A stretch of 64,000 bases of DNA from the NCBI GenBank assembly GCA_012646185.1, contig GCA_012646185.1_4706.1, one strand, 5' to 3'. The notes under the pieces were generated by a model. That model was not told where the DNA came from. It did not search any database and was given only the letters and a program-made list of their open reading frames with translations. Positions 797 to 63,698 of the stretch are shown here, piece by piece (the stretch's first letter is position 1; each line of letters begins with the position of its first letter). This stretch comes from a phage. The position numbers and the translations under genes were made by a program.

Positions 797-850
797 CCCG
801 TTCTCCTCAAGCTTTTCATTTCATAGAGTGGTGGAAATTCGTAGAAAGTT

Positions 851-899
851 ACAAAAATAAAAAAGAATGGGCAGCCCCTCCCCACCCGAAGGTAGGGAG
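851..899 (-). terminator. intrinsic terminator (9-bp stem, UUCG loop, U-tract) on minus strand
   Basis: Plus strand ctccccacc-cgaa-ggtagggag at 878-899 preceded by an A-run at 851-870; on the minus strand this is a hairpin followed by a U-tract, downstream of the CDS ending at 915. Confidence 0.55.
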
Positions 900-914
900 A
901 GACCGCAAATATAC

Positions 915-1379: not shown

Positions 1380-1464
1380 TTTACTATCCTCGGATTTCGT
1401 TAGGATTTAATTTCCAATATAAGGACAATGTGATATGCCTTATACAGTCGATTGATGTTGTACA

Positions 1465-1495
1465 TCACTTAAGTAATATAGCCGTGAAAAATGTT
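1465..1495 (-). promoter_or_regulatory. phiKZ-type early promoter motif (TATATTAC on minus strand)
   Basis: Plus strand aagtaatatagccgtgaaaaatg; minus strand reads ...CGGCTATATTACTT; oriented toward the CDS starting at 1379; same core as sites at 7294, 36265, 60955. Confidence 0.5.
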
Positions 1496-1498
1496 GGA

Positions 1499-2296: not shown

Positions 2297-2328
2297 GATT
2301 GTCCTCGTTTTCAATTTTAAGATTGCAT

Positions 2329-2338
2329 GCGGCATAAA
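2329..2338 (-). promoter_or_regulatory. late-promoter-like motif TTTATGCCG (minus strand) directly after a hairpin
   Basis: Plus strand gcggcataaa adjacent to hairpin 2339-2363; one of five copies of this arrangement (also 10852, 14900, 37167, 59785). Confidence 0.45.
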
Positions 2339-2363
2339 CCCTCCCCGCCTTATGCAGGGAGGG
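2339..2363 (-). terminator. GC-rich hairpin between co-oriented genes
   Basis: ccctccc - 11-nt loop - gggaggg, between the CDS ending at 2379 and the CDS starting at 2296. Confidence 0.45.
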
Positions 2364-2378
2364 CAGCCATTAAATGGA

Positions 2379-3017
2379 TTAACCTAATTTACCACCGGCA
2401 ATGTTGGTGAAATCTTCGCCATCAGGAACTTGCAGTAGGATACGTGCCATGTCCCAGTTGGTTAATGTAATTGCTTTATCATCGATACTCAGTTCTGGTA
2501 GGTCGAGTTCATGATCATCAAACTCGTAGGAAATACTCCACGTTTCATCTGTTTTAGGATCGGTTATCAACACACCGTCTGTTACACGCATGTAGTCCGG
2601 ATGCAATTCATTACTGAATGTGCTGAACGGATCGGTGTAACATTCAGCATACCCCTCGATCTGCTGACGTTGCGCCTTCGTACGTAATTCAGGGCACGCC
2701 ATAATCAGTTGTCGAGATATGCCGTTTGCAGCACGGAAGTCTTCCACGGTGTTGCATGGCATAACCACATCGTCATGGAAGATGTTCTCCGATTGTCTCA
2801 ACAGCGTCTTACGGAGTTCAGCATAGTTTATCTGATTGAATGCGTCGAACGTTGCTAACGATTCAGCGTAAAAATGCTTTACGTGTTCGCTTGCACTGCC
2901 GAGGCTATTCATCAGCTTGTGGCCGTACTCCATAAAGCTTTTATCGAGACCGGAGGACATTTCTCCGAACCTCAGTGCACGATAACTGTCTCGTCCACCT
3001 GTAAATATTTGCGCCAT
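2379..3017 (-). CDS. hypothetical protein
   Basis: 212-aa ORF; ATG preceded by AGGAGG SD immediately after the stop of the upstream exon. Confidence 0.65.
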   Translation of the reverse strand: MAQIFTGGRDSYRALRFGEMSSGLDKSFMEYGHKLMNSLGSASEHVKHFYAESLATFDAFNQINYAELRKTLLRQSENIFHDDVVMPCNTVEDFRAANGISRQLIMACPELRTKAQRQQIEGYAECYTDPFSTFSNELHPDYMRVTDGVLITDPKTDETWSISYEFDDHELDLPELSIDDKAITLTNWDMARILLQVPDGEDFTNIAGGKLG

Positions 3018-3032
3018 TACAGGCGTCCTCCT

Positions 3033-3254
3033 TTAGCAATGGTTGTTAGTTGCTTCTATTTCATCAAGATACGGTTCTACGTCATCGCCCTCCACGAATT
3101 CGTTGAACCAACAGTCAATGGTAGAAATAACCGGTGACTGGTGTTCACATTTCTTAGATACCTTAAAAGGCACGTTATTATCCATCATACCGAGTTCGGG
3201 TCGAAAACGCCCGAAATGTTTCGCAGTCCAAATGTCTGGGACGATATGGTTGTT
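3033..3254 (-). CDS. exon 3 of beta-prime-like gene (73 codons + stop)
   Basis: Begins AAC AAC CAT ATC GTC CCA (NNHIVP, cf. E. coli QMAVHVP after DFDGD) immediately after an intron-terminal G at 3255; in frame with the micro-exon. Confidence 0.7.
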   Translation of the reverse strand, partial: NNHIVPDIWTAKHFGRFRPELGMMDNNVPFKVSKKCEHQSPVISTIDCWFNEFVEGDDVEPYLDEIEATNNHC

Positions 3255-5233
3255 CATCAAAATCTTCAGTATGAATCGCTACTTCATACCCGCAGCATTA
3301 CCTGCAGCTCCTGGTGTTACCAGGATGTTGAGAGTATATCATGCCCATATTCCAAATGGAACGTAGGACTTCCGCGCTGGATCTCGCTTGAGACCACTTA
3401 CTCGTTGAACGTTCTCCTAAACGGAGCTTCGCTGCTGATTGGACATTGTTACGTACGGTAGGCGTCCCATTAAAGGGATTTTCATTGAAGCCGCGTACAT
3501 CCGTTACCTTGTTTCTACCTTATCGGTTCCTCTTACGAGGCGTAACGGCTTTAGCCTATTCCAGCAATTCACGGAATGCATATTCTCCTTTTCAGGAGAT
3601 AAGGCCATGGCTCTGGCATCACCGTCAAAGTCCACATATCTTCAGTATGAATCGCTACTTCATACCCGCAGCATTACCTGCAGCTCCTGGTGTTACCAGG
3701 ACGGAGAGATCATCTCATCACCCACGAAGGGTGTTCCGCGCTACCCTCAGCGAATTCGAGGGACATGATCGTTGAACCTTCCACCGATAATCGGTGGCTA
3801 GGCTGCTGATTAAACATTGTACGTTGGGGTGGCATCCTGGTTCAGGACTGTCGTTGAAGCCTCCCAACATCCACTCACTTATTTCCGCCTTATCGGCTCC
3901 CATAAGGGCAGAGTGGCTTTAGCCCGTCTCAGCAATTCACGGAATTCAAGCTCTTCCTTTCAGAAGGCAGGGCCTCATCTGAAGCATTGTATCCCTTAAG
4001 GATCATCACGCTTAACCCGATGGTGTTATCCTGCGGATCGCGTTTAACCTTGGTGATTTCAAGACATTGGTTACTGCTTCGGTCAAGTGATGGGTTTCGA
4101 ACAAAGCCGCACACAATCCCATCGAACGGCGTATCAGCAATAAGCTCATCGTGCAGCTCGCTCATCATCGGATGATAATTACGGACATGTTCCGCAACGA
4201 ACGCACGCGCTGCTCTCGGTGAGTAACCACGATGGAATAACTTGGATTGGATATGTTCTTTATTGGTTAAAGTAAATGGTGCGTATGGGAAATGCAGATG
4301 ATAATAACGATGGTTCGCTGTTATCGAACTGATTACGGTACGCGTGGTGAATGGATGTAATGTACCTAATATGTTTTTACGTGTAATACCTTTCTTCTTA
4401 CCGATGAACTCATCGAAAATCGCTGCGTGGTATTGCAGTAGCTTCAATTGCACTTTCGCCATCCAGTTTTCTTTCTTTCTGGCGCTCAAAGGTGTTGTTG
4501 GATGATAGATACTGTTCAACGTACCAATAGCATCGATCGCACCTTCCATTTTGCTATCCGCATAACGACCGGTCGGCGTATTTTCGATAACGAACATCAT
4601 GGCTGCAGGAAAGCTGATATACTGACTGAAGAACTTATCACGATGGATACGGATGAATTCTCGTAGCGTGTCAACTTTCTCCATGTTCTTCGGTCCACGT
4701 AACGTCGGTCCTTTATACAAGATCTCCATGATGCGATCGAAGTTCTGTATAAAGCTATTTACGCCACGCCGTATCCCGAATACATCGAATTGCTGCTCCA
4801 GATAGTTCTTGAGTTCGATGGGTCGTTTTACATTTGGACGGTAACTGGCATCAATGAGCCACGTCATCGTTTCAAAGCTTTTGATATTCAACTCGCTTGC
4901 CAGCACGAGATGGACCAACGGGTTAATGAACGCATCGATTCCTTCAGGAACGCGCGCCCAAACCGTCGAACGAATCTCTTGTTCTGCTGGGTAGGTTACA
5001 ACCGTTTTACAGTTTGGACACACCGTGCCGAGTAGCTCACCACGATTGTAGAAACCACAACCACATTGTGGTGTGATATCCAACGTATCGCTGGAGTAAA
5101 CACGGGTGATAAAACTGTTTAATTTCTTCTTCTCTTCGACGACTTTTGTATCGTAATCATTCAACAAAATCGGCGTGAAAGGAAGTTCTGCGAGCTGTCT
5201 ATCGAAACTCACGATATCGAGCATGATGGCCAT
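3033..5233 (-). CDS. RNA polymerase beta-prime-like subunit, N-terminal fragment type (non-virion RNAP by synteny); gene interrupted by two group I introns
   Basis: Exon 1 carries a Cys4 zinc-ribbon (CGCG...CPNC), a match to the beta-prime GKRVDYSGRSVI region (RKNILGTLHPFTTRTVIS) and an NRAPTLH-like RNPSLD; the spliced product of exons 3983..5233 + 3618..3632 + 3033..3254 (495 aa) reads ...KGYNA-DFDGD-NNHIVPD..., restoring the universal NADFDGD Mg-binding motif; AGGAG SD before the ATG at 5233. Confidence 0.75.
3255..3617 (-). ncRNA. group I intron (no ORF), 3'-proximal member of a tandem pair
   Basis: On the minus strand, in canonical order: P-like GAAUUGCUGGAAU (plus 3561-3573), Q-like AAUCAGCAGC (plus 3431-3440), R-like GUUCAACGAGUAAG (plus 3397-3410), S-like GAUAUACUCU (plus 3331-3340) with P7 pairing GAGUA/UACUC; ends in G; preceding exon ends in U. 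Confidence 0.75.
3618..3632 (-). CDS. 15-nt micro-exon encoding D-F-D-G-D (catalytic aspartate triad)
   Basis: Minus strand GAC TTT GAC GGT GAT lies exactly between the two introns, in frame with exon 1 (ends ...TAC AAT GCT = YNA) and exon 3. Confidence 0.7.
3633..3982 (-). ncRNA. group I intron (no ORF), 5'-proximal member of a tandem pair
   Basis: P-like GAAUUGCUGAGA (plus 3928-3940), Q-like AAUCAGCAGCC (plus 3801-3811), R-like GGUUCAACGAUCAUG (plus 3764-3778), S-like GAUGAUCUCUC (plus 3704-3714) with P7 GAUCAU/AUGAUC; ends in G at 3633; exon 1 ends in U at 3983. Confidence 0.8.
3983..5233 (-). CDS. exon 1 of beta-prime-like gene (417 codons)
   Basis: ORF-track ORF 3929..5233 truncated at the 5' splice site; the 18 track codons after ...GYNA (SDEALPSERKSLNSVNC) are intron-encoded and overlap the intron P element. 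Confidence 0.7.
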
Positions 5234-38981: not shown

Positions 38982-39692
38982 TCACCCCCTCAGAATCGCT
39001 TCTGTTTCGCTGATCGTATCCGCAGGATAAACCAAACTACTATCGATTGCGTTATTCACGTAACCACCCATTAAGTTGGTGATGGTGTTTGTACCGCTAT
39101 CGATAATGTTTCGTAATCCGATGTCGATGGCTTTTAAGGTGCTGCGTTCCTCATCCGAAAGCAAACGCCATGCTCGACGACGATCGTTGGGGTCACGTGT
39201 GGTGATAGACGCCAGAACAGAATAGATGCTGCTATCCGCATTCAATTTAACACCAGCCAATTTCGCTGACGTGTAGAGCAGCTGATATTTTTCTTTTTCG
39301 GTGTACCACCACGGCACTTTACCGAGCGTATAGATCTCGTTATACATCAGCCATGGGAAAGAGTTTCGCATCACGACATCGGTTGACACCAACACCGTGT
39401 CGCCGGGAAGAAACACAAATTCATAAAACGGCTGACCATCCATGGTAATCTCACGGATGTCAGATGGGTCGATATGGAGCTGGGTCAATGCGTGGCTGAC
39501 ACCATACTGACCATCAGGAAGAATAATCGGGCAGCACGCACAAACCCGGTTCTCACTCCCGATGATAGATAAACCCAATCCCTCGTAACGGACGGGTGTC
39601 AGAATCGAACACCCGCCACGAGTAACAACAGATTTATCTTCTTGTATGTCCCAGTCCGCAAGCACCGCAGCACCGTTGCGGACAAGCGCCAT
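38982..39692 (-). CDS. hypothetical protein
   Basis: 236-aa ORF. Confidence 0.6.
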   Translation of the reverse strand: MALVRNGAAVLADWDIQEDKSVVTRGGCSILTPVRYEGLGLSIIGSENRVCACCPIILPDGQYGVSHALTQLHIDPSDIREITMDGQPFYEFVFLPGDTVLVSTDVVMRNSFPWLMYNEIYTLGKVPWWYTEKEKYQLLYTSAKLAGVKLNADSSIYSVLASITTRDPNDRRRAWRLLSDEERSTLKAIDIGLRNIIDSGTNTITNLMGGYVNNAIDSSLVYPADTISETEAILRG

Positions 39693-41550: not shown

Positions 41551-44500
41551 TTATTTGGCGTCGTTAAAATAAATATCAACAGCTCGTTCCGTTGCGTAGA
41601 GGAGACCAAGATTCACAGTCCCAACCACTTCCGGTGAACCGATGATACGGTTAGCGATACTGGTGCCACTGAAGATAGCATCAAGGGTGTGCCCGTCTTC
41701 GGTTTTGTTCACACCATGACCCACGGAAGAGACAACGGATTTCGCTTGAGCTGCGAAGGTACCTTTATCACCCATCCCCGCACCAAGGTCGTAACGCATG
41801 AAAATACGGATAGCGATCTGGTTCTCGCCTAACGGATTACCGTCTATTCTCACGTTACTGTTATTGATACGCCCCGTAGTTGCTTCGTTGAGTTTCAGTT
41901 CCTTAACGCGTTTAGCTCGTGCTTTATCTGCCTCACCGACGAGCGCTGCCATGGTTTCACTCATATCCTCAATCTGAGCGCGGTACAGTACATCGATCTG
42001 TACAACTTCACCATGAACGTCAGCACGTGGGTTATACTGACTCATACGACGTAATGCTTCAACGGCTTCCTGACTCTCATCACTCAGATCGGTCGCAATC
42101 GGTTCTTCCAGTGTTGCAAGGATCGTTCGTGGTTCAACATGATCGCCGATTTTCACGAGACCACGAATGTTGAGATGGGCGTCAACGATGAGCGTACGGC
42201 TCTTAATCGATGGTGTTACGAGACGATCAGCAAGATTGTCGAAGATATACGAACTGTCCTCGTGAGTCTCTGGAATATCCAGAATACCGACAAGAGACAG
42301 AACACCTGCGCGCCAAACAACCTGACCTGGGTTCCACCAATCGCGTTTAAAATAAAGACGATGGAAAACCACCACATCCTGATCCTTAACGCGATCCCCG
42401 ACTTTATAATCGGTAATGAGATCGTGAGGATAATACTTACCTGGTCCTTTCCCGATTATCGTACCGAGCTGGAAAACCTCTTCCCCTAACTCTGGATCGT
42501 CGTATTGTATCGTAAGCGCAGTTTTGGTGACCTTCTTAACAACACCATCGCCTTGGGCAGCTGCTGCAAAGAGCTTACCAACACGATGCGCGATGACAGT
42601 CTCACCGCCTGTGCGCCATGGTTGTACATCGTAACCTTCAGCAGCAATCATGCGGTTGTGTTGGATCCCGACGAAGACCAGACGTTTTCCATCATCACGG
42701 TCTACAGCCGGAACAGCTAACGCTGACGTACTCATTACCGATGAGATGCCGTCTGTCTTTTCATCGAATGGTCGTGTTTCACCATACACCGACACGATAT
42801 TAGCATTAGGTGCAAGGTAAGCAGAGATACCCACATCCCCACTATCTTTCGTACCCTCTGACACAATACCAACATCGGACTTGTCGTATTCACGATCGCG
42901 TGCGCGTCGAAGCGATGTCTTTGAACGACCCCCGATACCGGTCATCGTTGCTTCTTCACCCTGCTTGATATCCAGCATCGGGTTGGTTTCATCGATCACG
43001 ATGGACGCGCTGTCGTCGAGAATTTGGTTCCAGACGCTTACCGGACTGATTGAGATTTTCTGACGATTTCCTTGACTGCTGTTCTCATTCTGACGAATAG
43101 CGCCAACCAGATCCTTATACACCAATTCAGCGAACTTATCGTACGTTTTAAAACGTTGATAGTTCACATCGTTGGTGTTAGGTGCCCAGTCATCCAGAAG
43201 CAGTTCAACAGCACGCAGTAACAACATGGCGAAATCGGTAGGTTCTCCCATGTTCTGTAGCAACGTACGGCTTACCGGATCAACGAAAAGACGCTCCATG
43301 AGTTCAAGTTCGCGTAAATGACGAACCTTAAGTCCGGCACCATCGACAACGTTAAAATAGATATCTCGATTGTCGAAAGCACCGCGAGCGTAACCGATGT
43401 AGTTACGGTACTCGTTAAATCCGCCCAGCAACAACGTCGTCATGCGATCGTCTTTACTGAAGATCAAACTTTCGTCATCAAAGCTCACCGCGAATTCATC
43501 GGGCGCTAGACCCATACGAGAACCGCGAGGTACCGTACGATAGTTCGCTTTAAGATGTTCTAATAACGGGGTAAGTCCACCCAGATAACTTAGAACAACA
43601 CCAACCGGAATACGTACACCCATGAATTCAAGATCGGCGGCTTCGATCGGCATCTTAGCCGCATTGATACCGAAGAAATCGGGGAACGTCCCTACAGGTG
43701 TTGGTGTTTGTCCTGACTGACAGATATAGAGCTGATTGCGTTTATCGATTGCTAAGAATTCACCCAGCGTGTTACGCGCAAACGTCAGGAGCCCTTCGGC
43801 TAACTGTTCGTTGAACCGATCTTCCCCGATGAACTCCGGCAATGTCTTTGTATCAAGACGTATATCCCAATCAGCAAATTGGATTTGGGTATAGTTGCGT
43901 GCAAGCACAGCGAAGTAATACGGGACTTTGACGGCCGGATCAAAGACGTTACCACGTTTTAACGTGGTTAAGGGCGAAGACTTATCGTAATACATCGCTG
44001 TAAGTTGGCGTGTTAGCCAACGACCGGCGTTATTAACGACACGCTCTGAACGTTTAACAAACACCTTACCGTAGGCGGTACTCAACGCAACTTCGGATGA
44101 TGATACCTTTCTAATAGGTTTATCAACACGTTGTTTACGCATCCGGTATTTGATGCCGTTAACAACATAAATGCCGTCCTTACGAACCTTCGGCAACATC
44201 ACCGGGAACGTGGTTGGGACACCGCCTACAGGAGCCAGTTTAATCGTGATGACTTGATAATCCCCCATCACGTCAACAACATCTTCAACTTTATATCCCG
44301 TGACAGGGTAACCTGCCTGTTGTACGGCAACAACAGCGGCTGCGATGTCCTTTTGCATCACGTGTTCAACGTAATGTTTATCCCACACCGCAAGCGTCGA
44401 TTTACATAGGCTCTTATCGACGATAACATCCGCTTCCGGCATAACCTTTGCTGGCGCTAATTTCGCGGCTTTTGGTTTAACTTCAACATACTCAGCAAGT

Positions 44501-45897
44501 GTTAATCCAGAACCGTCGGGTGCTTCGATTTCGTGAATGGCGTCAGCATTACGCATCGCTGCTTTATATTGGACGCCGCTTAACTGACCCGCATCAGCCA
44601 GATCGCTCGCGCGTACCAACACCGCATCCGATAACGACTGAATATATTCACCGTGTGTTTTCGGTAGCGTTGCTGCGTCAAAGACATCAACCTTTTCTTC
44701 TTCGGTATCGTCGGTAACGACTTCGAAGAGATCGTCGGTAATGTCCTGATCTTCATCGGGTTGGAAATCTGGTTGTACTTCTACCCCGGGTACTTCACGG
44801 ACATCTTCGAACGAGCGTTCTACAATGGCGTTCCACGCATCAGCGTCATCGTCTTCATCCGACCCGCCGACCAACTCCGCTTCTAACTCATCGGGATCAA
44901 GAACGGTAGCCAGATCCTCACCGTTAGGAAGCACGACGTCGCGATCATCATACTCCGCATCCGGGCTGTCTGCAAGAATATCTCGCTCTTGACGAAGAAC
45001 CTGTTCCTCTTCTTGTTTCTGTTCTTCTTCATTCGCACTCTGCGACCACAAACGTGTTACCGCCATCATCCAACGACGCTGGAAGGTTTCAAGTGTCGTT
45101 TTATCGAGTTCTTCCCCTTCCTTAACAAGCCCGGTACGCCATTCCTCCAGCAGGCCCAGATTCAGCGTAAAGAAGTACACACCGTCCGTAAATACAACGT
45201 TAAGCTTATCCAGCGTGGCTCTGTCTAACGAAGCCATCGTACTGTTCTCACGATCGGTTCCCAACCAGCGGAAGAAGTCAAAGAACGACAGCTCCTCCGG
45301 CGTAGCGAAATTCATGAGGTTGTTACGGGTCGGTGCCTGTTGCGTGGTACGCATCAACGAAATCTTCGGCAATGTTGACGGTATACGGAACAACAGAAAG
45401 TGTTGACGATCGCTTTGCTGTGCGATTTCGTTGGCTTTCGACCAAATTGTTTTACGTACGTTGAACCATTCATCATACCAACGGGTGAGCGTTGGACGAT
45501 AAATGTACATGTGGTTAAGATGCGCGTAGTTAGCCACGATCTGAGCGTTGATGTTTTTCTCCACCGTACTTAGATCAGTGACCAAACGAAAACGACGATG
45601 CGATGCACGGTAATCCAGTTTCGCACGCGGTAGCTGGAATCGCTGATCCCGTCGAGGTGCGCCTTGCTTGGTTGCAAGGTCATCCGCGAACGATATCCAA
45701 AGCTGGGCACTTTCTTTGCTCAGCATGTATTCGTTTTCTGGAGGACCTATCAATGATGGATCCGTTGCGGTGTAATGATAGACAGCATAACGCGGCAGCT
45801 GCAATAGCTGCACTAAACGTAATCTCGGTGACAATAGCTCTTGGTAGCGTCTGACACCGAACTGTCGGTAGTAATCAAGGTATTTAAGTTTTGCCAT
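41551..45897 (-). CDS. RNA polymerase beta-like subunit, large N-terminal fragment type (virion RNAP by synteny), putative
   Basis: 1448-aa ORF directly downstream of the beta-prime-like gene and next to the giant tail-protein gene, as in phiKZ gp178-gp181; C-terminal DLGAGMGDKG...RIIGSP resembles the beta GDKxAGRHGNKG / NPLGVPSRMNIGQ region; assignment is tentative. Confidence 0.5.
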   Translation of the reverse strand: MAKLKYLDYYRQFGVRRYQELLSPRLRLVQLLQLPRYAVYHYTATDPSLIGPPENEYMLSKESAQLWISFADDLATKQGAPRRDQRFQLPRAKLDYRASHRRFRLVTDLSTVEKNINAQIVANYAHLNHMYIYRPTLTRWYDEWFNVRKTIWSKANEIAQQSDRQHFLLFRIPSTLPKISLMRTTQQAPTRNNLMNFATPEELSFFDFFRWLGTDRENSTMASLDRATLDKLNVVFTDGVYFFTLNLGLLEEWRTGLVKEGEELDKTTLETFQRRWMMAVTRLWSQSANEEEQKQEEEQVLRQERDILADSPDAEYDDRDVVLPNGEDLATVLDPDELEAELVGGSDEDDDADAWNAIVERSFEDVREVPGVEVQPDFQPDEDQDITDDLFEVVTDDTEEEKVDVFDAATLPKTHGEYIQSLSDAVLVRASDLADAGQLSGVQYKAAMRNADAIHEIEAPDGSGLTLAEYVEVKPKAAKLAPAKVMPEADVIVDKSLCKSTLAVWDKHYVEHVMQKDIAAAVVAVQQAGYPVTGYKVEDVVDVMGDYQVITIKLAPVGGVPTTFPVMLPKVRKDGIYVVNGIKYRMRKQRVDKPIRKVSSSEVALSTAYGKVFVKRSERVVNNAGRWLTRQLTAMYYDKSSPLTTLKRGNVFDPAVKVPYYFAVLARNYTQIQFADWDIRLDTKTLPEFIGEDRFNEQLAEGLLTFARNTLGEFLAIDKRNQLYICQSGQTPTPVGTFPDFFGINAAKMPIEAADLEFMGVRIPVGVVLSYLGGLTPLLEHLKANYRTVPRGSRMGLAPDEFAVSFDDESLIFSKDDRMTTLLLGGFNEYRNYIGYARGAFDNRDIYFNVVDGAGLKVRHLRELELMERLFVDPVSRTLLQNMGEPTDFAMLLLRAVELLLDDWAPNTNDVNYQRFKTYDKFAELVYKDLVGAIRQNENSSQGNRQKISISPVSVWNQILDDSASIVIDETNPMLDIKQGEEATMTGIGGRSKTSLRRARDREYDKSDVGIVSEGTKDSGDVGISAYLAPNANIVSVYGETRPFDEKTDGISSVMSTSALAVPAVDRDDGKRLVFVGIQHNRMIAAEGYDVQPWRTGGETVIAHRVGKLFAAAAQGDGVVKKVTKTALTIQYDDPELGEEVFQLGTIIGKGPGKYYPHDLITDYKVGDRVKDQDVVVFHRLYFKRDWWNPGQVVWRAGVLSLVGILDIPETHEDSSYIFDNLADRLVTPSIKSRTLIVDAHLNIRGLVKIGDHVEPRTILATLEEPIATDLSDESQEAVEALRRMSQYNPRADVHGEVVQIDVLYRAQIEDMSETMAALVGEADKARAKRVKELKLNEATTGRINNSNVRIDGNPLGENQIAIRIFMRYDLGAGMGDKGTFAAQAKSVVSSVGHGVNKTEDGHTLDAIFSGTSIANRIIGSPEVVGTVNLGLLYATERAVDIYFNDAK

Positions 45898-45900
45898 GGG

Positions 45901-46080
45901 TTAGGCTCCACGAGGTCCCGTTAAGTTGCGTAACAGGAACGCAACTGTATCGTAACCAATATCAATGTTGAATTTATTTTTACCGCTTACCCAGAAAGCA
46001 CGCTTCTTGTGTGAGTTGGTAATTTCGTCAATAGCTTCCATGGAATAAAGAACGTTAACCGAGACCGTATCACCGTCGAA
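45901..46080 (-). CDS. exon 2 of virion-type beta-prime-like gene (59 codons + stop)
   Basis: Begins TTC GAC GGT GAT ACG GTC (FDGDTVSVNVLYSMEAIDE, cf. E. coli FDGDQMAVHVPLTLEAQLE) right after an intron-terminal G at 46081; stop TAA lies 3 nt before the ATG of the beta-like gene. Confidence 0.7.
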   Translation of the reverse strand, partial: FDGDTVSVNVLYSMEAIDEITNSHKKRAFWVSGKNKFNIDIGYDTVAFLLRNLTGPRGA

Positions 46081-49000
46081 CCTTGTCTTCGCCTCAGGTC
46101 GCTACGCTGAGACCGCCTGCATGGATACGTACATCACAGGCTGCTTGCACTTTCATGCAAGAGGAGACTATATCAAACCGGCAGCGCAACCTGCTACGGT
46201 AACCTACACTTCGAAGACGCTCGTCCTCTACAGGGTGGTAAATCCCTTAGTCGTTGAACCTGCGTTGTTTCACATTCTTGTTTGTAAGAATGTCGTATTA
46301 CTACGCAACAACCAGGCTGCTGATTGCCCATTGTTTCGCACCTTAGCACCGCTTACGCGGCTTTTCTTTCAGCCTAAGCCTCTTACGGAGGTAGTGCATC
46401 TCAACTGTTGTTTCTGCCTTTCGGCACCTCATGGGTCGTTGAGCTTTAGGGGTTCCCAGCATTTCGTAGGTTTTTCAAGCACTCCCTTTCGGGAATACCG
46501 GACTCATTATTAGCTTATTTATTCAAGTATCTGAAATCCCACTTATCTTTACGTCGTTTATCGCACTTGATGTCAGGATGATTAACACGATGCCTAATAG
46601 TTGTTGCCGATAGCTGGCTGAGATTCTCAGCAGATCGTGCGCCAAGAACAACGAGTTTTGTGTCGTCTGGACGCGTAACTTCTACTGCCCGATAATGCTT
46701 ACGTAACACATCACGCCAATATTCACGACGTTCTGGTTCAGCATACTCAAGCATGTAACCGTTAACATCTACTAAACCGTAGCTTTCGTTTAATCGAGAG
46801 GTAGCGGCTGGTTTACTAATACCGATTGCTTTAGCCGCATCGACCACGGTTTTATACGGGGTCTCATTACCGTCTCTATCTACAACCACAATGAAATCTG
46901 GACGTGAATCGAGTAGCTGCTGTCTGCGTTCGACGGCTTGTTGATGAAGCACCATGTTAACGTGTTCGAACCCGTAACCTTCTGGACCGTGCCACCCTGG
47001 ATTGTTATTCGCTCGATAAAGTACCGTCGCAGATTTCACTCCAGTCTGACGTGACGCCTCGTTTGCACTATGAACAACCGTGGTAGAGCCGTCAGGGTGA
47101 TATATCCGTATCTGGTTCATTATACCGGAACCAATGAAGTTACCATCAGCTGATTTAATATCCGGCCATGGTTGAGGATCATCTTTGAATTTAACCACCC
47201 AGCGGTTATTAAACAGTTTGACTTTTCGAACATGTTTGCCCATTGTCGTATCCGTAACACCTGCGACTACTGATGCCTGTGTGATACTCAGGTACTCAGT
47301 AACGGTATCGTTCCATGTATCCCAAAGCAGAACCGGTTTATTGTCGTCGCGTAAACCGTATTCGATGGCGTGTAGAACGTTACGACTTCTGGTCGCCCAT
47401 TCAAGATTATCGAGAGAGTAATTCCATTTGTCGGCATCGAGATGATTAACGTCCAACTTATCGACATTAGCCGGATATTCCCGCCACGCCAACATCAAGC
47501 AGCGATGCAGAACCTTAGTTCTCGTTACATCCCGACAATCATGACGTAGACTAATGAATACGTAATTATCCTTTTTCGGATACGATCTACATTCCTGACC
47601 GTCTTTGCGGCGAATAACTCGTCCTTTCTCATTTATCAGATAACGGGTGTGTCCAGGAATGACACGATAACCAGGGTACTTAGCGATTTCGTAAGCAGGC
47701 TCGAACCGATAGGATAAATTATCAACATCCCAGTTAGATTCGTCACCATCAACAAACATCGCTTTGACGTACTTCTGTGTTTCAATATCAACCAGGATGT
47801 TTTTGTGTGCGATACAAATCAATGCTGGGATATTGAATTCACGACCGGCTAAGATAACCATGTCGCCATTTCTCGGTATCACGACGTGGGTATCACGATA
47901 CCGTAAATTTCCATAGCCGTCTATTTCAATCCAGCTTAGAAACGGAATGGATATAAACTCTTTTTCAGATACTCGCCATTTAAACATCTTAATACCTATT
48001 TAATACTAAACATCATATTAATAGGTTTAAAAGTTAAAAATGACAGAAAATGGCTAAATTGAATCACCGCCTAAACCGGCGAGGTACGGGGCAGGAACAA
48101 TAGTAGTTTCTACGAATGATGCATTAGGTAACCAGTCGGGGTATTCCCATGCGATAAATCGTTCATCCGTTATTGGTTCCCAGTTACTATCCAGTTCGGT
48201 TTTCGGTTTTGCCGCAACGGTTGTACGTGCGTAACAGGTTAACGGGATAACGGATTGCATACCGGATACCGGATAACGTGTTACCATCGCAGCCAGGTTA
48301 TTCCAGTACTTATAACCAGCGATATAAATAAGCTCGGTGTAAGTAATGGGGTGAACATCCGCACCAGGCTTATTCAACATCTCCGGAGGTAATTCACTCA
48401 TACCACGGAATAACCGAAACGAATCATTGTTCACATAGACGAGGCAAAGATATCGTCCATTGACCATGATAGGCTCGTTACGCACGCCAGGATCGCTTAA
48501 GGTGTTCAGTAAACGTTCTATTCCGTCCCAGGTTGTAAAGTCATCGATGGTGTCTGGATCAAGCGTGACACGTTCACGTTCCATCGTTTCGGTATCAATA
48601 AGTTCAACTTCTGTAACGTCACGAACAAATATTTCCTGCAAAATACCGGTACGTAACGCATGTTGCGTTACTGGGAGAGCAGCTTTACTCATCTGGTATA
48701 ACCCTAACTGAACTGCGGTACAGGAAGGCTGGTTAGGCGACCCTAATACCTCCGTTGTGGGGTTAATTGCCGAAATAACGTTACGGGTTGAGTTCCAAAC
48801 GCGACGTGAACCAAACTTCCCTTGGAAGATCCCTTTCTTACCTTGGAACATATCCAACAACAAAGCGTAGATATCGTTAAACGTTCTCTGTAAGCTCCAG
48901 CGTTGGCCGTCGTAAACGGGATCGGAATAATCTTTTAATCCATCAGGGACGGTGTTAGAAATTGCAAGGAAACGACGATACAACTCCGTGATTTCTTGCT

Positions 49001-49529
49001 CGCTTTCATACCCACCTTCTTTTACTTCTATTTCACGTAAACCCGCAGGTAAAACCAGTAGATGACGAGTCATCGCTTTGAACATGTTCTCTTCGACGAC
49101 TTTAATTCGTAGCTCTCGTTGAGCTGAACCCGTTGAAACGAACTTAATATCAGCGACGTGTTGTGCAAAGAACCCGTACCCTGTCTGTCCTGTTAACGCA
49201 TCAGACGCAACGAAGTCGCGTTGTTCAGGATCCCAACGCGCGTACGCCTTCCCCGACATGATATCGCCATAGAGGTGTTTTAGTCGAATGAGACGATCGT
49301 AGATGACAGGATGTAGGATTTCAACCTTGCATTCAATCACCGCAAATCGACGGTCTCGATCTTCACTACCCGCACTACCAAAGATGGTGTATGAATAGAA
49401 ACCGTCATCGTGGAAATTACCGGTGCTTGGATCACGAATGCTCATGCTCGTGATCTTGGGGAGAAAACGTAACTGCTGTTTATCGAGGTGTAAAATACTA
49501 ATATTAAACGGCTCTCTGACTTTAGCCAT
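45901..49529 (-). CDS. RNA polymerase beta-prime-like subunit, N-terminal fragment type (virion RNAP by synteny); gene interrupted by a group I intron
   Basis: Exon 1 shows GLFxxxIFGP-like (DGFYSYTIFGS), QGKFGSRRVWNSTRNVISAINP (cf. [26 protein letters not shown]) and TRYPVSG (cf. NRAPTLH); splicing 48063..49529 to 45901..46080 gives ...YLAGLGGD-FDGD-TVSVNV... (548 aa); AAGAGGAG SD before the ATG at 49529. Confidence 0.75.
46081..48062 (-). ncRNA. group I intron carrying an HNH homing-endonuclease ORF (mobile intron)
   Basis: Minus strand: 5' exon ends GGT GAT (U); ORF 46515..47987 lies in the 5' part; core follows with P-like GAAAUGCUGGGAAC (plus 46451-46465), Q-like AAUCAGCAGCC (46314-46324), R GUUCAACGACUAAG (46246-46260), S GAUAUAGUCUC (46164-46174), P7 GACUA/UAGUC; ends in G. 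Confidence 0.8.
46515..47987 (-). CDS. HNH homing endonuclease (intron-encoded)
   Basis: 490 aa; HNH_3-type motif VNHLDADKWNYSLDNLEWATRSRNVLH; C-terminal helix-turn-helix-like AKAIGISKPAATSRL; lies entirely within the intron. Confidence 0.8.
   Translation of the reverse strand: MFKWRVSEKEFISIPFLSWIEIDGYGNLRYRDTHVVIPRNGDMVILAGREFNIPALICIAHKNILVDIETQKYVKAMFVDGDESNWDVDNLSYRFEPAYEIAKYPGYRVIPGHTRYLINEKGRVIRRKDGQECRSYPKKDNYVFISLRHDCRDVTRTKVLHRCLMLAWREYPANVDKLDVNHLDADKWNYSLDNLEWATRSRNVLHAIEYGLRDDNKPVLLWDTWNDTVTEYLSITQASVVAGVTDTTMGKHVRKVKLFNNRWVVKFKDDPQPWPDIKSADGNFIGSGIMNQIRIYHPDGSTTVVHSANEASRQTGVKSATVLYRANNNPGWHGPEGYGFEHVNMVLHQQAVERRQQLLDSRPDFIVVVDRDGNETPYKTVVDAAKAIGISKPAATSRLNESYGLVDVNGYMLEYAEPERREYWRDVLRKHYRAVEVTRPDDTKLVVLGARSAENLSQLSATTIRHRVNHPDIKCDKRRKDKWDFRYLNK
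48063..49529 (-). CDS. exon 1 of virion-type beta-prime-like gene (489 codons)
   Basis: ORF-track ORF 48054..49571 trimmed at both ends: start at the SD-supported ATG 49529; the last two track codons (S, I) and the stop are intron sequence. Confidence 0.65.
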
Positions 49530-49591
49530 GGAGACACTCCTCTTTACCACCACCGGCTGCGGCGGTATCATCTGAACACACGAGAGACGTA

Positions 49592-49637: not shown

Positions 49638-49774
49638 TTACTAGGTTACGTACCTGCCTGATTTTATCAGGTGGGCGATGTGTGAAGTTATGCTTCAACA
49701 TTATCAATGCCGAAGGTAAACTTCGTGCATCACGTTCCAACGTAACATGGGAACGTATCGAACTGGAGGTATAC

Positions 49775-63023: not shown

Positions 63024-63698
63024 TTAGCCCTCATCAAGGTTATTCTGGAGATGCATTGCGGTGAGGATAACGCCAACCGCCGAAACCGATTTTGCCTTGC
63101 TGTCTTCAGGGAGCTGCTCCAAGCTTACGGTACCTGTTTCTAACAGCATGCGGTTCATCGCGTTGAACTTCTTATCATCACCACCACGAGCCTGCATCAG
63201 CTCTCGGTTCACGTTCGGCATCGACCGTCCTAACGTCGCTTGCATTTCCGGCTGGCTCCAAGTGGAACCTTTACTATCACCCGTCGGCTGATTGGTGAGC
63301 TGGTCCTTGGTGTTGTTGTTTTTCGGAATCGATATTTTAGCACTCAACGTTTCGGCTTGTCGGCGGTTTGGAATCAGGTACAATCTGGTTGGGCGGTCAC
63401 GAAGCACCAATTGCCCTGTTTTCTGGTCGGTGAGATAAATGCGCTGGAAGAAGGGGAAACCGTATTTCTTACCAACTTCCAACGCACGTTTTATCGTCAC
63501 CTCGTTTTTGTTCATGTTGGGTACCCAGATGGGTAGAATCTCTTTCTTATCCCGACATAAACGCATATAGGCATCAAACGTCTCATCATCGATTTCAGCA
63601 AAACGTTTTTTGTAAATAGCGTAAGTCGGGCTCGATTCACCCACCAGGTCTTTGATATACCCAAGAATGAATTTTTCTGCTGCAGCGCGGTTGGACAT
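63024..63698 (-). CDS. hypothetical protein
   Basis: 224-aa ORF. Confidence 0.6.
   Translation of the reverse strand: MSNRAAAEKFILGYIKDLVGESSPTYAIYKKRFAEIDDETFDAYMRLCRDKKEILPIWVPNMNKNEVTIKRALEVGKKYGFPFFQRIYLTDQKTGQLVLRDRPTRLYLIPNRRQAETLSAKISIPKNNNTKDQLTNQPTGDSKGSTWSQPEMQATLGRSMPNVNRELMQARGGDDKKFNAMNRMLLETGTVSLEQLPEDSKAKSVSAVGVILTAMHLQNNLDEG

What the first reader, a model, noticed from the sequence alone, without database searches (positions are those of the whole stretch)
41551..49529. Split RNAP architecture: the beta-like ORF ends just after a GDK...RIIGSP region and the beta-prime-like ORFs end 60-75 residues after DFDGD
The 1448-aa protein's C-terminus (DLGAGMGDKG...AIFSGTSIANRIIGSP) resembles the beta-subunit region around GDKxAGRHGNKG / NPLGVPSRMNIGQ, and both beta-prime-like genes stop shortly after the catalytic loop. 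That matches the subunit split points of phiKZ-type virion and non-virion RNAPs and implies the partner C-terminal fragments are encoded elsewhere, outside this window.
Basis: partly seen in the sequence, partly recalled or inferred. Interest (0 to 1): 0.4.

Follow-up and report, generated by a model that had tools for sequence, protein, structure and literature searches.

The report
Split phage RNA polymerase genes, intron-interrupted

Summary
The window is a close relative of E. coli jumbo phage Goslar (91-98% nt identity). The 1448-aa ORF is beta-like. A family profile aligns collinearly with E. coli RpoB 509-1107 (hhalign 95%, E 3.5e-8), and the ORF ends 70 residues after GDK.

The beta-prime part holds only after splicing. 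The 505-aa ORF stops inside the motif (…LGGD|SI*). FDGD plus 55 more residues lie 1,982 nt downstream, beyond a group I intron (Rfam 56.3 bits, above the 50-bit cut-off). That intron carries the 490-aa ORF, an HNH homing endonuclease related to phiKZ gp179.

The second beta-prime gene (5233-3033, next to chimallin) holds two tandem paralogous group I introns. They flank an 18-nt micro-exon, GACTTTGACGGTGATGCC (DFDGDA). Splicing restores a gapless match to phiKZ gp55 and a Pfam RNAP hit.

Not all partner fragments lie outside the window. Beta-C (63024-63698) and, by the literature only, beta-prime-C (38982-39692) are inside it.

The split architecture and the phiKZ-type intron are already known. 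The twin-intron micro-exon and the clustering of five insertion points in about 24 nt appear undescribed in the literature I could search. They are a modest variant of a known theme.

The parts
48063..49571 (-). Virion RNAP beta-prime-N, exon 1. The ORF as listed runs to a stop at 48054-48056, 6 nt into the intron. The likely start is M15 at 49529. It is the homolog of phiKZ gp180, Goslar gp205 and SPN3US gp240.
   Evidence: phrog_2986 3.4e-161, covering profile positions 3-484 of 539, so the C-terminal 55 positions are missing. Alignment A1 with intronless RAY gp163 and 14Ps5-6 puts the break at LGGD|FDGD. Profile A8 against E. coli RpoC 219-357: 88.5%, E 2.7e-6.
46081..48062 (-). Group I intron, 1,982 nt, inserted between GAT (D) and TTC (F) of GGD|FDGD. 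The 5' splice site follows U48063. The internal guide sequence UGAGUC is at 46506-46501. The terminal G (omegaG) is at 46081.
   Evidence: Rfam RF00028 56.3 bits against a 50-bit gathering score, E 1.3e-11, for 46530-46144. P1 is GAU|UCA paired with UGAGUC, with a U.G wobble at the splice site. phiKZ gp180/gp179 carries an intron at the same codon boundary. Goslar RefSeq annotates Intron_gpI here.
46515..47987 (-). Intron-encoded HNH homing endonuclease, 490 aa. It sits in the P1 loop, between the 5' splice site and the guide sequence.
   Evidence: Pfam HNH_3 1.7e-8 (above cut-off); NUMOD1 and I-HmuI_NUMOD-like are weak. phrog_59 1.2e-26. BLASTP to phiKZ gp179 2e-31.
45901..46080 (-). Virion RNAP beta-prime-N, exon 2: FDGDTVSVNVLYS...PRGA plus stop. 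It has no start codon of its own before M at 46041.
   Evidence: Alignment with the intronless homologs. Spliced length is 562 aa, or 548 aa from M15, with 55 residues after DFDGD.
41551..45897 (-). Virion RNAP beta-N, 1448 aa. It is the homolog of phiKZ gp178, Goslar gp207 and SPN3US gp241. It starts 4 nt after the beta-prime-N stop and is uninterrupted here.
   Evidence: phrog_3148, full length. 2197 family representatives, nearly all ending at the same point. PDB profile hits to beta. hhalign to RpoB 509-1107.
63024..63698 (-). Virion RNAP beta-C, 224 aa, homolog of Goslar gp196. This is the C-terminal partner of the 1448-aa protein and it lies inside the window.
   Evidence: phrog_3233 1.1e-65. 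100% identical to Goslar. hhalign of A3 against RpoB 1160-1312, E 0.0069, collinear and directly after the beta-N end point. All of the top 50 Foldseek PDB hits are RNAP beta chains, but E is 0.097 or worse. Goslar gp196 is listed as a vRNAP subunit (10.64898/2026.04.21.720040).
38982..39692 (-). Putative virion RNAP beta-prime-C, 236 aa, homolog of Goslar gp210 and SPN3US gp244. The assignment rests on the literature.
   Evidence: BLASTP to SPN3US gp244 2e-23, and syntenic. gp244 is called the fifth vRNAP subunit, beta-prime-C, in PMC5694885. Goslar gp210 is listed as a vRNAP subunit. No similarity to RpoC was detectable here and the AF2 model is unusable.
3983..5233 (-). Non-virion RNAP beta-prime-N, exon 1 (417 codons, ...ILKGYNA). 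It is the homolog of phiKZ gp55 and lies directly downstream of chimallin (5326-7221).
   Evidence: PDB 7ogp_A (phiKZ gp55) 1.6e-60, with the alignment stopping at NA(D). phrog_2987 covers positions 1-417 of 478. Chimallin Pfam hit 4.6e-27.
3633..3982 (-). Intron I1, a 350-nt group I intron without an ORF, inserted at NA|D. P1 is GCU|UC-agau-GAGGC.
   Evidence: Rfam RF00028 is sub-threshold at 23.1 bits (E 0.0022 in the 1.2-kb search, 0.12 in the whole-window search). It is a paralog of I2 by direct repeats. Family alignment with covariation. P1 check. The same intron is present in IMG/VR contig L023.
3615..3632 (-). 18-nt micro-exon GAC TTT GAC GGT GAT GCC, encoding DFDGDA, the Mg-binding loop.
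   Evidence: The spliced product aligns without gaps to phiKZ gp55, NADFDGDA-MNNH against NADFDGDQ-LNLT. Pfam RNA_pol_Rpb1_2 scores 36.9 bits (cut-off 25.3) across residues 371-428 only after splicing.
3258..3614 (-). Intron I2, a 357-nt group I intron without an ORF, inserted at DGDA|M. It is the ortholog of Goslar intron B. Its 5' splice site follows C, not U.
   Evidence: Rfam RF00028 27.4 bits (E 1.2e-4 local, 0.006 whole window). 94% identical to Goslar over 2300-3606. Covariation. P1 forms a C-G pair. The same C is present in L023.
3033..3257 (-). Non-virion RNAP beta-prime-N, exon 3: MNNHIVPDIW...NNHC plus stop, 74 codons. Goslar annotates this stretch as hypothetical gp185.

Best explanation
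The window comes from a Goslar-like member of the Chimalliviridae, the nucleus-forming jumbo phages. It encodes the phage's own multisubunit RNA polymerases as separate fragments of beta and beta-prime.

The finding's region holds the operon-like pair beta-prime-N then beta-N of the virion-packaged enzyme. Beta-prime-N carries the DFDGD Mg-binding loop of double-psi barrel A. It ends 55 residues after the loop. Beta-N carries the beta core through the GDK...K...NR motifs of barrel B. It ends 70 residues after GDK. The active site forms between these two polypeptides (inferred from the phiKZ and AR9 nvRNAP structures). The missing beta C-terminus is supplied by a 224-aa protein at 63024-63698. 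A further subunit, beta-prime-C according to the literature, lies at 38982-39692.

The beta-prime-N gene is not one ORF. A 1,982-nt group I intron sits between the first Asp and the Phe codon of DFDGD. It carries an HNH homing endonuclease gene in its P1 loop. Self-splicing (inferred) joins ...LGGD to FDGDTVS.... The endonuclease presumably nicks or cuts intron-less alleles at this highly conserved sequence during co-infection and so spreads the intron (inferred by analogy with PhiPA3 gp210 and I-HmuI).

The paralogous non-virion beta-prime-N gene (5233-3033) is interrupted twice by ORF-less members of the same intron family, at NA|D and at DGDA|M. The catalytic loop is therefore encoded on an 18-nt micro-exon, which must be ligated on both sides to give an active enzyme.
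For: Identity of the phage:
- 90.8-98% nt identity to Goslar.
- Chimallin is present, and the corresponding Goslar region annotates PhuZ and the terminase.

Beta-N:
- Profile hits to beta.

Beta-C:
-, and the literature.

Beta-prime-N of the virion enzyme:
-.

vRNAP intron:
- Rfam score above the gathering threshold.
- A U.G wobble at the splice site in P1 and a terminal G.
- An in-frame junction that reproduces the sequence of the intron-less homologs RAY gp163 and phiKZ-species phage 14Ps5-6.
- 239 of 276 phage records cover at least 80% of a query spanning the junction in one place.
- phiKZ has the same intron-plus-endonuclease layout at the same site, and the endonucleases are homologous.

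nvRNAP introns:
- Two Rfam hits and direct repeats.
- Five-intron alignment: 89.8% of cells are paired, against 36-45% in the slid controls. 40 pairs have changes on both sides, against 5-11 in the controls. P7 is 100% paired, with four different pair types at one position.
- After splicing, the match to phiKZ gp55 (PDB 7ogp_A) rises from 208.5 to 255 bits. The alignment runs without gaps across both junctions.
- Pfam RNA_pol_Rpb1_2 passes its cut-off only for the spliced protein.
- An independent genome, L023, keeps both introns and the same micro-exon, with compensatory changes in the 3' hairpins.
- Goslar and L018 have a different upstream intron and a 13-nt micro-exon, but the same downstream intron.

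Literature:
- Split sites: PMC7598289.
- phiKZ introns in gp55 and gp180: PMC11512511, PMC10914365.
- Five vRNAP subunits in SPN3US and Goslar: PMC5694885, 10.64898/2026.04.21.720040.
Against: - There are no RNA or protein data for this phage, so splicing is inferred from sequence only.
- A long-read transcriptome of phiKZ found no spliced reads for the homologous introns under its conditions (PMC10914365).
- Introns I1 and I2 score below Rfam's gathering threshold (23.1 and 27.4 against 50 bits).
- Intron I2 has C rather than the almost universal U before its 5' splice site. This makes a C-G pair instead of the U.G wobble, which from general knowledge of group I introns should slow the first splicing step.
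- The beta-C assignment rests on a modest hhalign E-value (0.0069, probability 5.6%) and on non-significant Foldseek hits.
- The beta-prime-C assignment could not be reproduced here at all.
Confidence: 0.88

Rival explanations
1. The 505-aa and 434-aa ORFs are complete beta-prime-N genes that contain DFDGD and end 60-75 residues later. There are no introns, and all partner fragments lie elsewhere in the genome.
For: The end points of the mature proteins (55 and 75 residues after DFDGD) agree with the known split after DPBB-A (PMC7598289). The beta-prime-M subunit and the remaining nvRNAP subunits are indeed absent from the window.
Against: Neither ORF contains DFDGD. The PHROG profiles show 55-61 C-terminal positions missing from each ORF. 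There are Rfam intron hits. Beta-C and the gp244/gp210-type subunit are inside the window.
Confidence: 0.03
2. The catalytic loop is split at the protein level. Exon 1, the DFDGD piece and the tail are translated separately and assemble non-covalently, as one further step in the fragmentation of these polymerases.
For: These enzymes are already split into four or five polypeptides, and phiKZ long-read data did not show splicing (PMC10914365).
Against: The 18-nt micro-exon and the 59-codon exon 2 have no start codon or ribosome-binding site at their 5' ends. The intervening sequences have a conserved group I core with covariation, a terminal G, and guide sequences complementary to the exon ends. 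The deposited phiKZ nvRNAP chain is a single 508-residue gp55-gp56.1 polypeptide. Most relatives have uninterrupted genes.
Confidence: 0.03
3. The beta-prime genes are decaying. The insertions are dead mobile elements, and intron I2 (or I1) no longer splices in this strain. The strain would then depend on another polymerase or be a defective genome.
For: I1 and I2 have no endonuclease, score below the Rfam threshold, and I2 has a C-G pair at the 5' splice site.
Against: Both RNAPs belong to the conserved core of chimalliviruses, and vRNAP subunits are essential in SPN3US (PMC5694885). Exon reading frames are intact and junctions are exact. Changes between the window, L023, Goslar and L018 are compensatory in the helices. 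The C at -1 is shared by two independent genomes.
Confidence: 0.05
4. The twin introns act as a switch. Because the 3' ends of I1 and I2 are 93% identical over 81 nt, the I1 5' splice site can be joined to the I2 3' splice site. That would skip the micro-exon and yield a catalytically dead beta-prime-N (NA|MNNH) that modulates late transcription.
For: The last 81 nt of I1 and I2 are near-identical. Exon 1 joined to exon 3 stays in frame (sequence). The weak C-G 5' splice site of I2 could favour skipping.
Against: This is purely speculative and nothing here measures isoforms. Goslar and L018 have an unrelated upstream intron in a different phase (tt|c), where skipping would shift the frame. A conserved regulatory role is therefore unlikely.
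Confidence: 0.05

Closest known systems
phiKZ virion RNAP locus gp180 (beta-prime-N) / gp179 (HNH) / gp178 (beta-N)
   Same: Same gene order. Same split points. A group I intron with an HNH endonuclease in the P1 loop at the same codon boundary (GAD|FDGD against GGD|FDGD). The endonucleases are homologous (2e-31). The ribozymes are alignable, with a shared 3' end.
   Different: Protein identity is only about 33-40%. The endonuclease here is 490 aa against 357 aa. The window is an E. coli phage with 46% G+C. Some phiKZ-species isolates, such as 14Ps5-6, lack the intron.
Escherichia phage vB_EcoM_Goslar (NC_048170), gp205-gp207, gp196, gp210, gp247/gp186/gp185
   Same: 91-98% nt identity and the same vRNAP locus, including the annotated Intron_gpI. 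The downstream nvRNAP intron (B, equivalent to I2) is the same. The vRNAP subunits have been identified by mass spectrometry.
   Different: The upstream nvRNAP intron differs. Goslar has an unrelated intron with an HNH gene (gp186) inserted 5 nt further downstream (NADF, tt|c) and a 13-nt micro-exon. The window has an ORF-less paralog of I2 at NA|D and an 18-nt micro-exon. The codons at the splice sites differ at synonymous positions.
phiKZ non-virion RNAP gp55 / gp56 / gp56.1 (PDB 7OGP)
   Same: Orthologous beta-prime-N (1.3e-74), located next to chimallin. The gene is interrupted in the NADFDGD codons by an intron of the same family. The mature protein ends about 70 residues after DFDGD.
   Different: phiKZ has one intron, with endonuclease gp56, at N|A. 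The window has two ORF-less introns at NA|D and DGDA|M.
PhiPA3 gp210 intron endonuclease in vRNAP beta-N gp211/gp209 (Birkholz et al. 2024, PMC11620839)
   Same: An HNH homing endonuclease inside a group I intron that targets a catalytic-site motif of a chimallivirus RNAP gene. Introns of the same family occupy that DD|PKR site in the IMG/VR contigs L017, L021, L028 and L029.
   Different: That intron is in the beta-N gene. In the window that site (residues 1068-1069, RDD|GKR) is unoccupied, and the endonuclease-bearing intron is in beta-prime-N instead.
Cyanobacterial and plastid split beta-prime (gamma/RpoC1 plus RpoC2)
   Same: Beta-prime is divided shortly after the double-psi barrel that carries NADFDGD. 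The jumbo-phage split is reported to coincide with this one (PMC7598289).
   Different: The cellular enzymes keep alpha and omega and an unsplit beta. Here beta is also split, after GDK...NR, and beta-prime is cut into three pieces in the virion enzyme (PMC5694885).
Multi-intron phage genes (for example the Twort ribonucleotide reductase gene with two group I introns, cited in PMC12908238)
   Same: Several self-splicing group I introns sit in one essential phage gene, at conserved active-site codons.
   Different: Here the two introns are only 18 nt apart, are paralogs of each other, and isolate the catalytic motif itself on a micro-exon.

Membership tests
Chimalliviridae / phiKZ-type split multisubunit RNAP (virion enzyme) | A beta-prime-N polypeptide with the DFDGD loop that ends shortly after double-psi barrel A | tested here: met
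   The spliced product has DFDGD at residues 503-507 and ends 55 residues later. It aligns full-length with RAY gp163, 14Ps5-6 and SPN3US gp240. hhalign to RpoC 219-357, E 2.7e-6.
Chimalliviridae / phiKZ-type split multisubunit RNAP (virion enzyme) | A large beta-N polypeptide homologous to beta through the GDK/HGNK/SRM region, ending there | tested here: met
   (RpoB 509-1107). Family members end at the same position.
Chimalliviridae / phiKZ-type split multisubunit RNAP (virion enzyme) | A separate beta-C polypeptide covering the beta C-terminus | tested here: inconclusive
   phrog_3233 1.1e-65. hhalign to RpoB 1160-1312, E 0.0069 but probability 5.6%. The profile finds nothing in the PDB. 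The Foldseek top 50 are all beta chains, but E is 0.097 or worse. The Goslar homolog gp196 is listed as a vRNAP subunit.
Chimalliviridae / phiKZ-type split multisubunit RNAP (virion enzyme) | Beta-prime-C as the fifth subunit (SPN3US gp244 type) | tested here: inconclusive
   Homology and synteny with SPN3US gp244 are met (2e-23). Similarity to beta-prime is not detectable (E 0.73). The AF2 model has pLDDT 42.
Chimalliviridae / phiKZ-type split multisubunit RNAP (virion enzyme) | Packaged in the virion and transcribes early genes | not testable with these tools
   Literature only, for the Goslar, phiKZ and SPN3US homologs.
Chimalliviridae non-virion RNAP beta-prime-N (phiKZ gp55 family) | Sequence homology to gp55, including the Zn-ribbon and the NADFDGD loop, and a position next to chimallin | tested here: met
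   7ogp_A 1.3e-74 over residues 21-476. Pfam PF00623 36.9 bits against a 25.3-bit cut-off. Chimallin at 5326-7221.
Group I intron (Rfam RF00028) | A conserved catalytic core (P3-P8 with P7) scoring above the family threshold | tested here: met
   The vRNAP intron scores 56.3 bits against the 50-bit gathering score. I1 (23.1 bits) and I2 (27.4 bits) do not reach it on score alone. They align to the same family with 89.8% of cells paired, 40 compensatory pairs and a covarying P7.
Group I intron (Rfam RF00028) | A U.G wobble pair at the 5' splice site in P1, formed with an internal guide sequence | tested here: met
   Met for the vRNAP intron (GAU|UCA with UGAGUC) and for I1 (GCU|UC with GAGGC). 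NOT met for I2 in the window and in L023, where GCC|A pairs with UGGC to give C-G. The Goslar ortholog has GCU|UA.
Group I intron (Rfam RF00028) | A terminal G (omegaG) and an exact in-frame restoration of the host gene | tested here: met
   All three introns end in G. The spliced proteins match intron-less homologs without gaps.
Group I intron (Rfam RF00028) | GTP-dependent self-splicing | not testable with these tools
   Needs an in vitro or in vivo RNA assay. The phiKZ long-read data were negative for the homologous introns (PMC10914365).
HNH homing endonuclease (I-HmuI / phiKZ gp179 / PhiPA3 gp210 type) | An HNH catalytic domain | tested here: met
   Pfam HNH_3 34.4 bits against a 24.8-bit cut-off. 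phrog_59 and phrog_959.
HNH homing endonuclease (I-HmuI / phiKZ gp179 / PhiPA3 gp210 type) | C-terminal NUMOD-type DNA-binding modules | tested here: inconclusive
   NUMOD1 E 0.029 and I-HmuI_NUMOD-like E 0.12, both below their cut-offs.
HNH homing endonuclease (I-HmuI / phiKZ gp179 / PhiPA3 gp210 type) | Encoded within an intron, and cleaves or nicks the intron-less allele near the insertion site | not testable with these tools
   The location inside the intron is shown (46515-47987 within 46081-48062). Activity is untested.

The most novel reading that the evidence does not exclude
The roughly 24 nt that encode N-A-D-F-D-G-D-x in chimallivirus beta-prime genes are a multi-target landing pad for one family of group I introns. 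I find five distinct insertion points:
- N|A in phiKZ gp55.
- NA|D in the window and L023.
- D|F in the virion genes of phiKZ, Goslar and the window.
- F(tt|c) in Goslar and L018.
- DGDA|M in all four Goslar-like genomes.

In the Goslar lineage two introns co-exist 13-18 nt apart, so the Mg-binding loop is a free-standing micro-exon. The window's upstream intron I1 would be an ectopic copy of the I2-type intron. Its 3-nt guide (GGC) recognises a second GCU (Ala) codon 18 nt upstream, which suggests endonuclease-independent transposition by reverse splicing. The twin arrangement could also allow exon skipping, and the C-G splice site of I2 could make polymerase production depend on splicing efficiency.
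Probability: 0.45. Interest if true: 0.55.

Novelty: new member of a known kind. Interest (0 to 1): 0.3.

Why it matters
The finding as written adds nothing new. The split beta and beta-prime architecture of phiKZ-like polymerases and its split points are published, and the window is a near-copy of a sequenced phage.

The practical value is corrective. Public annotation of Goslar-type genomes lists truncated 'RNA polymerase beta subunit' genes that lack the catalytic aspartates. It also lists the DFDGD-distal exon as a hypothetical protein. Anyone who expresses, models or knocks down these subunits needs the spliced sequences given here.

The intron layout is of some interest for mobile-element biology. 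Several staggered insertion sites of one intron family fall inside a single catalytic motif. A paralogous ORF-less intron pair brackets an 18-nt micro-exon. This gives a natural system for studying intron competition, ectopic transposition and the accuracy of tandem self-splicing. PhiPA3 gp210 has already shown that such intron endonucleases can decide the outcome of phage co-infection.

Tried and rejected
- Single-sequence searches of the 1448-aa protein found nothing useful: phmmer against the PDB and Pfam. A family profile was needed. The search for homologous proteins returned only 3 hits, so I used the exhaustive HMMER search and built A4.
- Beta-C: the profile found nothing in the PDB. 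AF2 gave pLDDT 66.7. Foldseek gave only non-significant hits, although all were beta chains. The claim rests on hhalign, PHROG and the literature.
- Beta-prime-C (236 aa): only 3 close homologs were found. hhalign against RpoC gave E 0.73. AF2 gave pLDDT 42, so no fold search was run.
- I looked for alternative splice sites that would put a U before the I2 5' splice site. A site after GAU would delete the residue between DGD and M that is present in all homologs. It could also be paired with a 3' site that does not end in G. Rejected.
- I considered a protein-level split at DFDGD, pseudogenes and inteins. All were rejected: there are stops in all frames, no start codons, a ribozyme core and exact junctions.
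- The look-up of encoding contigs for the 434-aa ORF gave only one short contig, with no new information.
- Several fetched loci (L004-L006, L011-L030) were not available to Python, so their junctions were read by eye from tool output.

Full report
**What the window is.** The finding's region is 90.8% identical at the nucleotide level to Escherichia phage vB_EcoM_Goslar. The region around the second beta-prime gene is 94-98% identical. The window also encodes chimallin (Pfam 4.6e-27), and the corresponding Goslar region annotates PhuZ, the terminase and the tail sheath. It is therefore a Goslar-like member of the Chimalliviridae. These are jumbo phages that carry two multisubunit RNA polymerases of their own, a virion-packaged one (vRNAP) and a non-virion one (nvRNAP) (PMC7598289, PMC8287921).

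**The observation, beta part.**
- As a single sequence it matches nothing in Pfam or the PDB. It is full-length phrog_3148.
- It belongs to a family with 2197 cluster representatives, almost all of which end within a few residues of the same point.
- A 41-sequence profile hits bacterial beta subunits in the PDB, with T. thermophilus at E 3.6e-17 and E. coli at 4.7e-7. The stretches are collinear. They include NP..K.R...G.GG / RD.H...G, the DDANR region, and VGDK..HGNKG.
- hhalign against E. coli RpoB gives 95% probability and E 3.5e-8 for window residues 962-1418 against RpoB 509-1107. The alignment ends with GMGDK...AQAK...NRI opposite GDK...HGNK...SRM.
GDK is at residues 1376-1378 and 70 residues follow.

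**The observation, beta-prime part.** The 505-aa ORF (48054-49571, -) is beta-prime-like.
- It matches phrog_2986, gives weak hits to AR9 and plastid beta-prime, and a four-sequence profile aligns to E. coli RpoC 219-357 with E 2.7e-6.
- It does not contain DFDGD. It ends ...APYLAGLGGD-SI-stop, and it covers only positions 3-484 of the 539-position PHROG profile.
- A motif scan finds FDGDTVSVNVLYS... 1.98 kb downstream, in a stretch with no start codon.
- Between the two lie a 490-aa ORF and 386 nt that Rfam calls a group I intron. The ORF is an HNH homing endonuclease (Pfam HNH_3 1.7e-8; phrog_59). The Rfam hit scores 56.3 bits against a 50-bit gathering threshold, E 1.3e-11.
- Intron-less homologs read ...LGGDYDGDTMS (Erwinia phage RAY gp163) and ...LGADFDGDTVS (phiKZ-species phage 14Ps5-6). 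This places the junction at GGD|FDGD.
- At the DNA level the 5' splice site follows U48063. An internal guide sequence, UGAGUC (46506-46501), lies 9 nt after the endonuclease stop codon. It pairs with GAU|UCA with the canonical U.G wobble. The intron ends in G46081.
- The intron is 1,982 nt long, with the endonuclease gene in the P1 loop.
- The spliced protein is 562 aa, or 548 aa from the probable start M15 at 49529. It has DFDGD at residues 503-507 and ends 55 residues later.
- phiKZ has the same arrangement at the same codon boundary: gp180 exon 1, then gp179, then the ribozyme, then exon 2, then gp178. Its endonuclease is homologous (2e-31).
- Goslar's RefSeq record annotates the intron, but it leaves gp205 truncated and exon 2 unannotated.

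**The second beta-prime gene.** It is the ortholog of phiKZ gp55 (7ogp_A, 1.6e-60). The alignment stops at ...NA(D).
- Downstream, DFDGD appears just after stop codons, and the sequence shows two tandem copies of a roughly 350-nt element.
- Both copies give sub-threshold Rfam group I hits of 27.4 and 23.1 bits.
- Reading the junctions gives five pieces: exon 1 to 3983 (...GYNA), intron I1 at 3982-3633, an 18-nt micro-exon at 3632-3615, intron I2 at 3614-3258, and exon 3 at 3257-3033. The micro-exon reads GAC TTT GAC GGT GAT GCC, which encodes DFDGDA.
- The spliced 497-aa protein aligns without gaps across both junctions to phiKZ gp55. NADFDGDA-MNNHIVPD lines up with NADFDGDQ-LNLTLMPD, and the score rises from 208.5 to 255 bits. 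The spliced protein now also reaches cellular beta-prime and Rpb1.
- Pfam RNA_pol_Rpb1_2 passes its cut-off (36.9 against 25.3 bits) over residues 371-428 only for the spliced protein.
- The protein ends 75 residues after DFDGD.

**Are I1 and I2 real ribozymes?** I aligned I1, I2, Goslar intron B and the ribozyme parts of the phiKZ gp180 intron and the window vRNAP intron.
- The alignment shows the conserved J3/4-P4 (AAUUGCUGG), P4'-P6 (AAUCAGCAGC), J6/7-P7 (GUUCAACGA..A) and P7' (GAUAUAGUC) blocks. It also shows a shared 3' end, GCUGCAsGUAA..UGCGGG, then a hairpin, then ACUGAAxAxxxxG|.
- On the consensus structure plus P7, 89.8% of cells are paired, against 36-45% when partners are slid by 1-3 columns. 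Forty pairs show changes on both sides, against 5-11 in the controls. P7 is 100% paired, with C-G, G-C, A-U and U-A at one position.
- P1 models carry the U.G wobble for I1 (GCU|UC-agau-GAGGC), for Goslar B (GCU|UA-auca-UAGGC) and for the introns of phiKZ gp55 and gp180.
- I2 in the window has GCC|A, which gives a C-G pair.
- A scan of IMG/VR with a core pattern found 20 loci of this intron family. One of them, L023, is a 237,533-bp contig with the same I1 plus micro-exon plus I2 arrangement. It has the same C at the I2 splice site and compensatory substitutions in the 3' hairpins. The arrangement is therefore inherited and under structural constraint.

**Comparison with Goslar.** Goslar and contig L018 share intron B (equivalent to I2) but have a different upstream intron.
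- That intron is inserted after the second base of the Phe codon (NADF, tt|c), which leaves a 13-nt micro-exon, C GAC GGT GAC GCT.
- In Goslar it carries the HNH gene gp186. In L018 it does not.
- phiKZ gp55 has its intron at N|A.
- Counting the virion genes, five insertion points fall within about 24 nt of coding sequence.
- About a third of phage records break the nvRNAP beta-prime-N match near this motif: only 147 of 231 cover at least 80% of the query. Most vRNAP genes are uninterrupted (239 of 276).

**Where the partner fragments are.**
- Goslar's annotation and a 2026 preprint list five vRNAP subunits: gp78, gp196, gp205, gp207 and gp210. Four have homologs in the window.
- The 224-aa ORF at 63024-63698 is 100% identical to Goslar gp196 and matches phrog_3233 at 1.1e-65. 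An 18-sequence profile aligns to RpoB 1160-1312, immediately after the point where beta-N stops, at E 0.0069 but with low hhalign probability. An AF2 model (pLDDT 66.7) retrieves only RNAP beta chains among its top 50 PDB matches, all non-significant. I accept it as beta-C with moderate confidence.
- The 236-aa ORF at 38982-39692 is homologous to and syntenic with SPN3US gp244 (2e-23). The SPN3US authors call gp244 the fifth subunit, beta-prime-C (PMC5694885). I could not reproduce any similarity to RpoC.
- The beta-prime-M subunit (Goslar gp78 type) and the remaining nvRNAP subunits are not in the window.

**How it most likely works.**
- Shown: the gene fragments, their homology to beta and beta-prime, the intron cores, the guide-sequence pairings and the in-frame junctions.
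- Inferred from the solved phiKZ and AR9 nvRNAP structures and from group I intron biochemistry: the pre-mRNAs self-splice, beta-prime-N and beta-N (with beta-C and the other pieces) assemble into an alpha-less and omega-less core, and the DFDGD loop and the GDK/K/R residues form the active centre.
- Inferred by analogy with PhiPA3 gp210 (PMC11620839) and I-HmuI: the HNH protein nicks intron-less alleles at the conserved DFDGD-coding sequence and drives homing during co-infection.
- I1 and I2 lack endonucleases. I1 may be an ectopic copy of the I2 type at a second GCU codon, since the guide needs only GCU, which would suggest reverse splicing. This is a hypothesis.

**Caveats.**
- There are no expression data for this phage.
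- A phiKZ long-read transcriptome did not detect splicing of the homologous introns (PMC10914365). The solved phiKZ nvRNAP nevertheless contains a single 508-residue gp55-gp56.1 chain.
- The C-G pair at the I2 5' splice site is atypical and unexplained.

**Comparison with what is known, and verdict.**
- Already published: the split architecture, the split after DPBB-A in beta-prime, the separate split in beta, the five-subunit virion enzyme, and endonuclease-bearing introns in phiKZ gp55 and gp180 and in PhiPA3 beta-N. The window is a near-identical relative of a sequenced phage, so the finding as stated is known biology, partly mis-described.
- New, as far as the searchable literature shows: the twin-intron and micro-exon organisation in the Goslar lineage, the extra intron I1 at a new site in this strain, and the clustering of insertion points. 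These are a variant of a known theme rather than a new kind of system.
- Scores: interest 0.3; novelty 'new member of a known kind'.

Noticed in passing
window 3615-3632 and 3258-3614 (-); L023 4616-4990: Intron I2 has C instead of the near-universal U immediately before its 5' splice site (GCC|AGAG), so P1 has a C-G pair rather than a U.G wobble. The same C is present in an independent IMG/VR genome. Goslar and L018 have GCU|UAAU.
   Followed up: partly
window 3983-3990 / 3615-3632 versus Goslar L002 1814-1826 and 3273-3285: The spliced codons around the catalytic loop differ between the window and Goslar only at synonymous third positions. The window reads AAT GCT GAC TTT GAC GGT GAT GCC and Goslar reads AAT GCC GAC TTC GAC GGT GAC GCT. 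Each difference coincides with the presence or absence of an intron at that spot, as expected from co-conversion or target-site immunity.
   Followed up: no
proteins P0088, P0143, P0162, P0163 (relatives of window 41551-45897): Several beta-N family representatives end exactly at ...GD, one residue before the invariant Lys of GDK (window K1378). This suggests another intron insertion site, GD|K, in the beta catalytic motif of other chimalliviruses.
   Followed up: partly
window 41551-45897 (-), residues 1066-1072 (VDRDDGKR); loci L017, L021, L028, L029: The PhiPA3 gp210-type intron site in beta-N (DD|PKR) is unoccupied in the window. In four IMG/VR jumbo-phage contigs it carries an intron of the same family as I1, I2 and the phiKZ gp180 intron.
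   Followed up: partly
window 41551-45897 (-), residues ~1-500, especially 285-400: The N-terminal third of beta-N has no similarity to cellular beta and contains a long acidic low-complexity stretch (EEEQKQEEEQ..., DEDDDADA...). In 201phi2-1 the homolog loses an N-terminal propeptide (PMC5694885). Whether that happens here is unknown.
   Followed up: no
Goslar NC_048170: gp205, gp247, gp185 (L001, L002): The public annotation lists the two beta-prime-N genes as truncated 'RNA polymerase beta subunit' ORFs without the catalytic aspartates. It lists nvRNAP exon 3 as hypothetical protein gp185. The second nvRNAP intron, the micro-exon and vRNAP exon 2 are not annotated.
   Followed up: yes
window 3262-3342 versus 3638-3718: The last 81 nt of I1 and I2 are 93% identical in this strain, while the rest of the two introns is about 72% identical. 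In L023 the two 3' ends differ more. This suggests recent gene conversion between the tandem introns.
   Followed up: no
locus L014 (IMG/VR contig of 47,746 bp): Another member of the intron family is followed by ...G TAC GAC GGC GAT ACT GTA TCT ATG (YDGDTVSM). That is a further beta-prime catalytic-loop insertion, possibly in a different codon phase.
   Followed up: no
window 49682-56440 (+): A 2252-aa ORF is transcribed divergently from the vRNAP genes. It corresponds to Goslar gp204, the 'tail fiber / lysozyme-domain protein'. The same synteny is seen in phiKZ (gp181), RAY and SPN3US (gp239).
   Followed up: no
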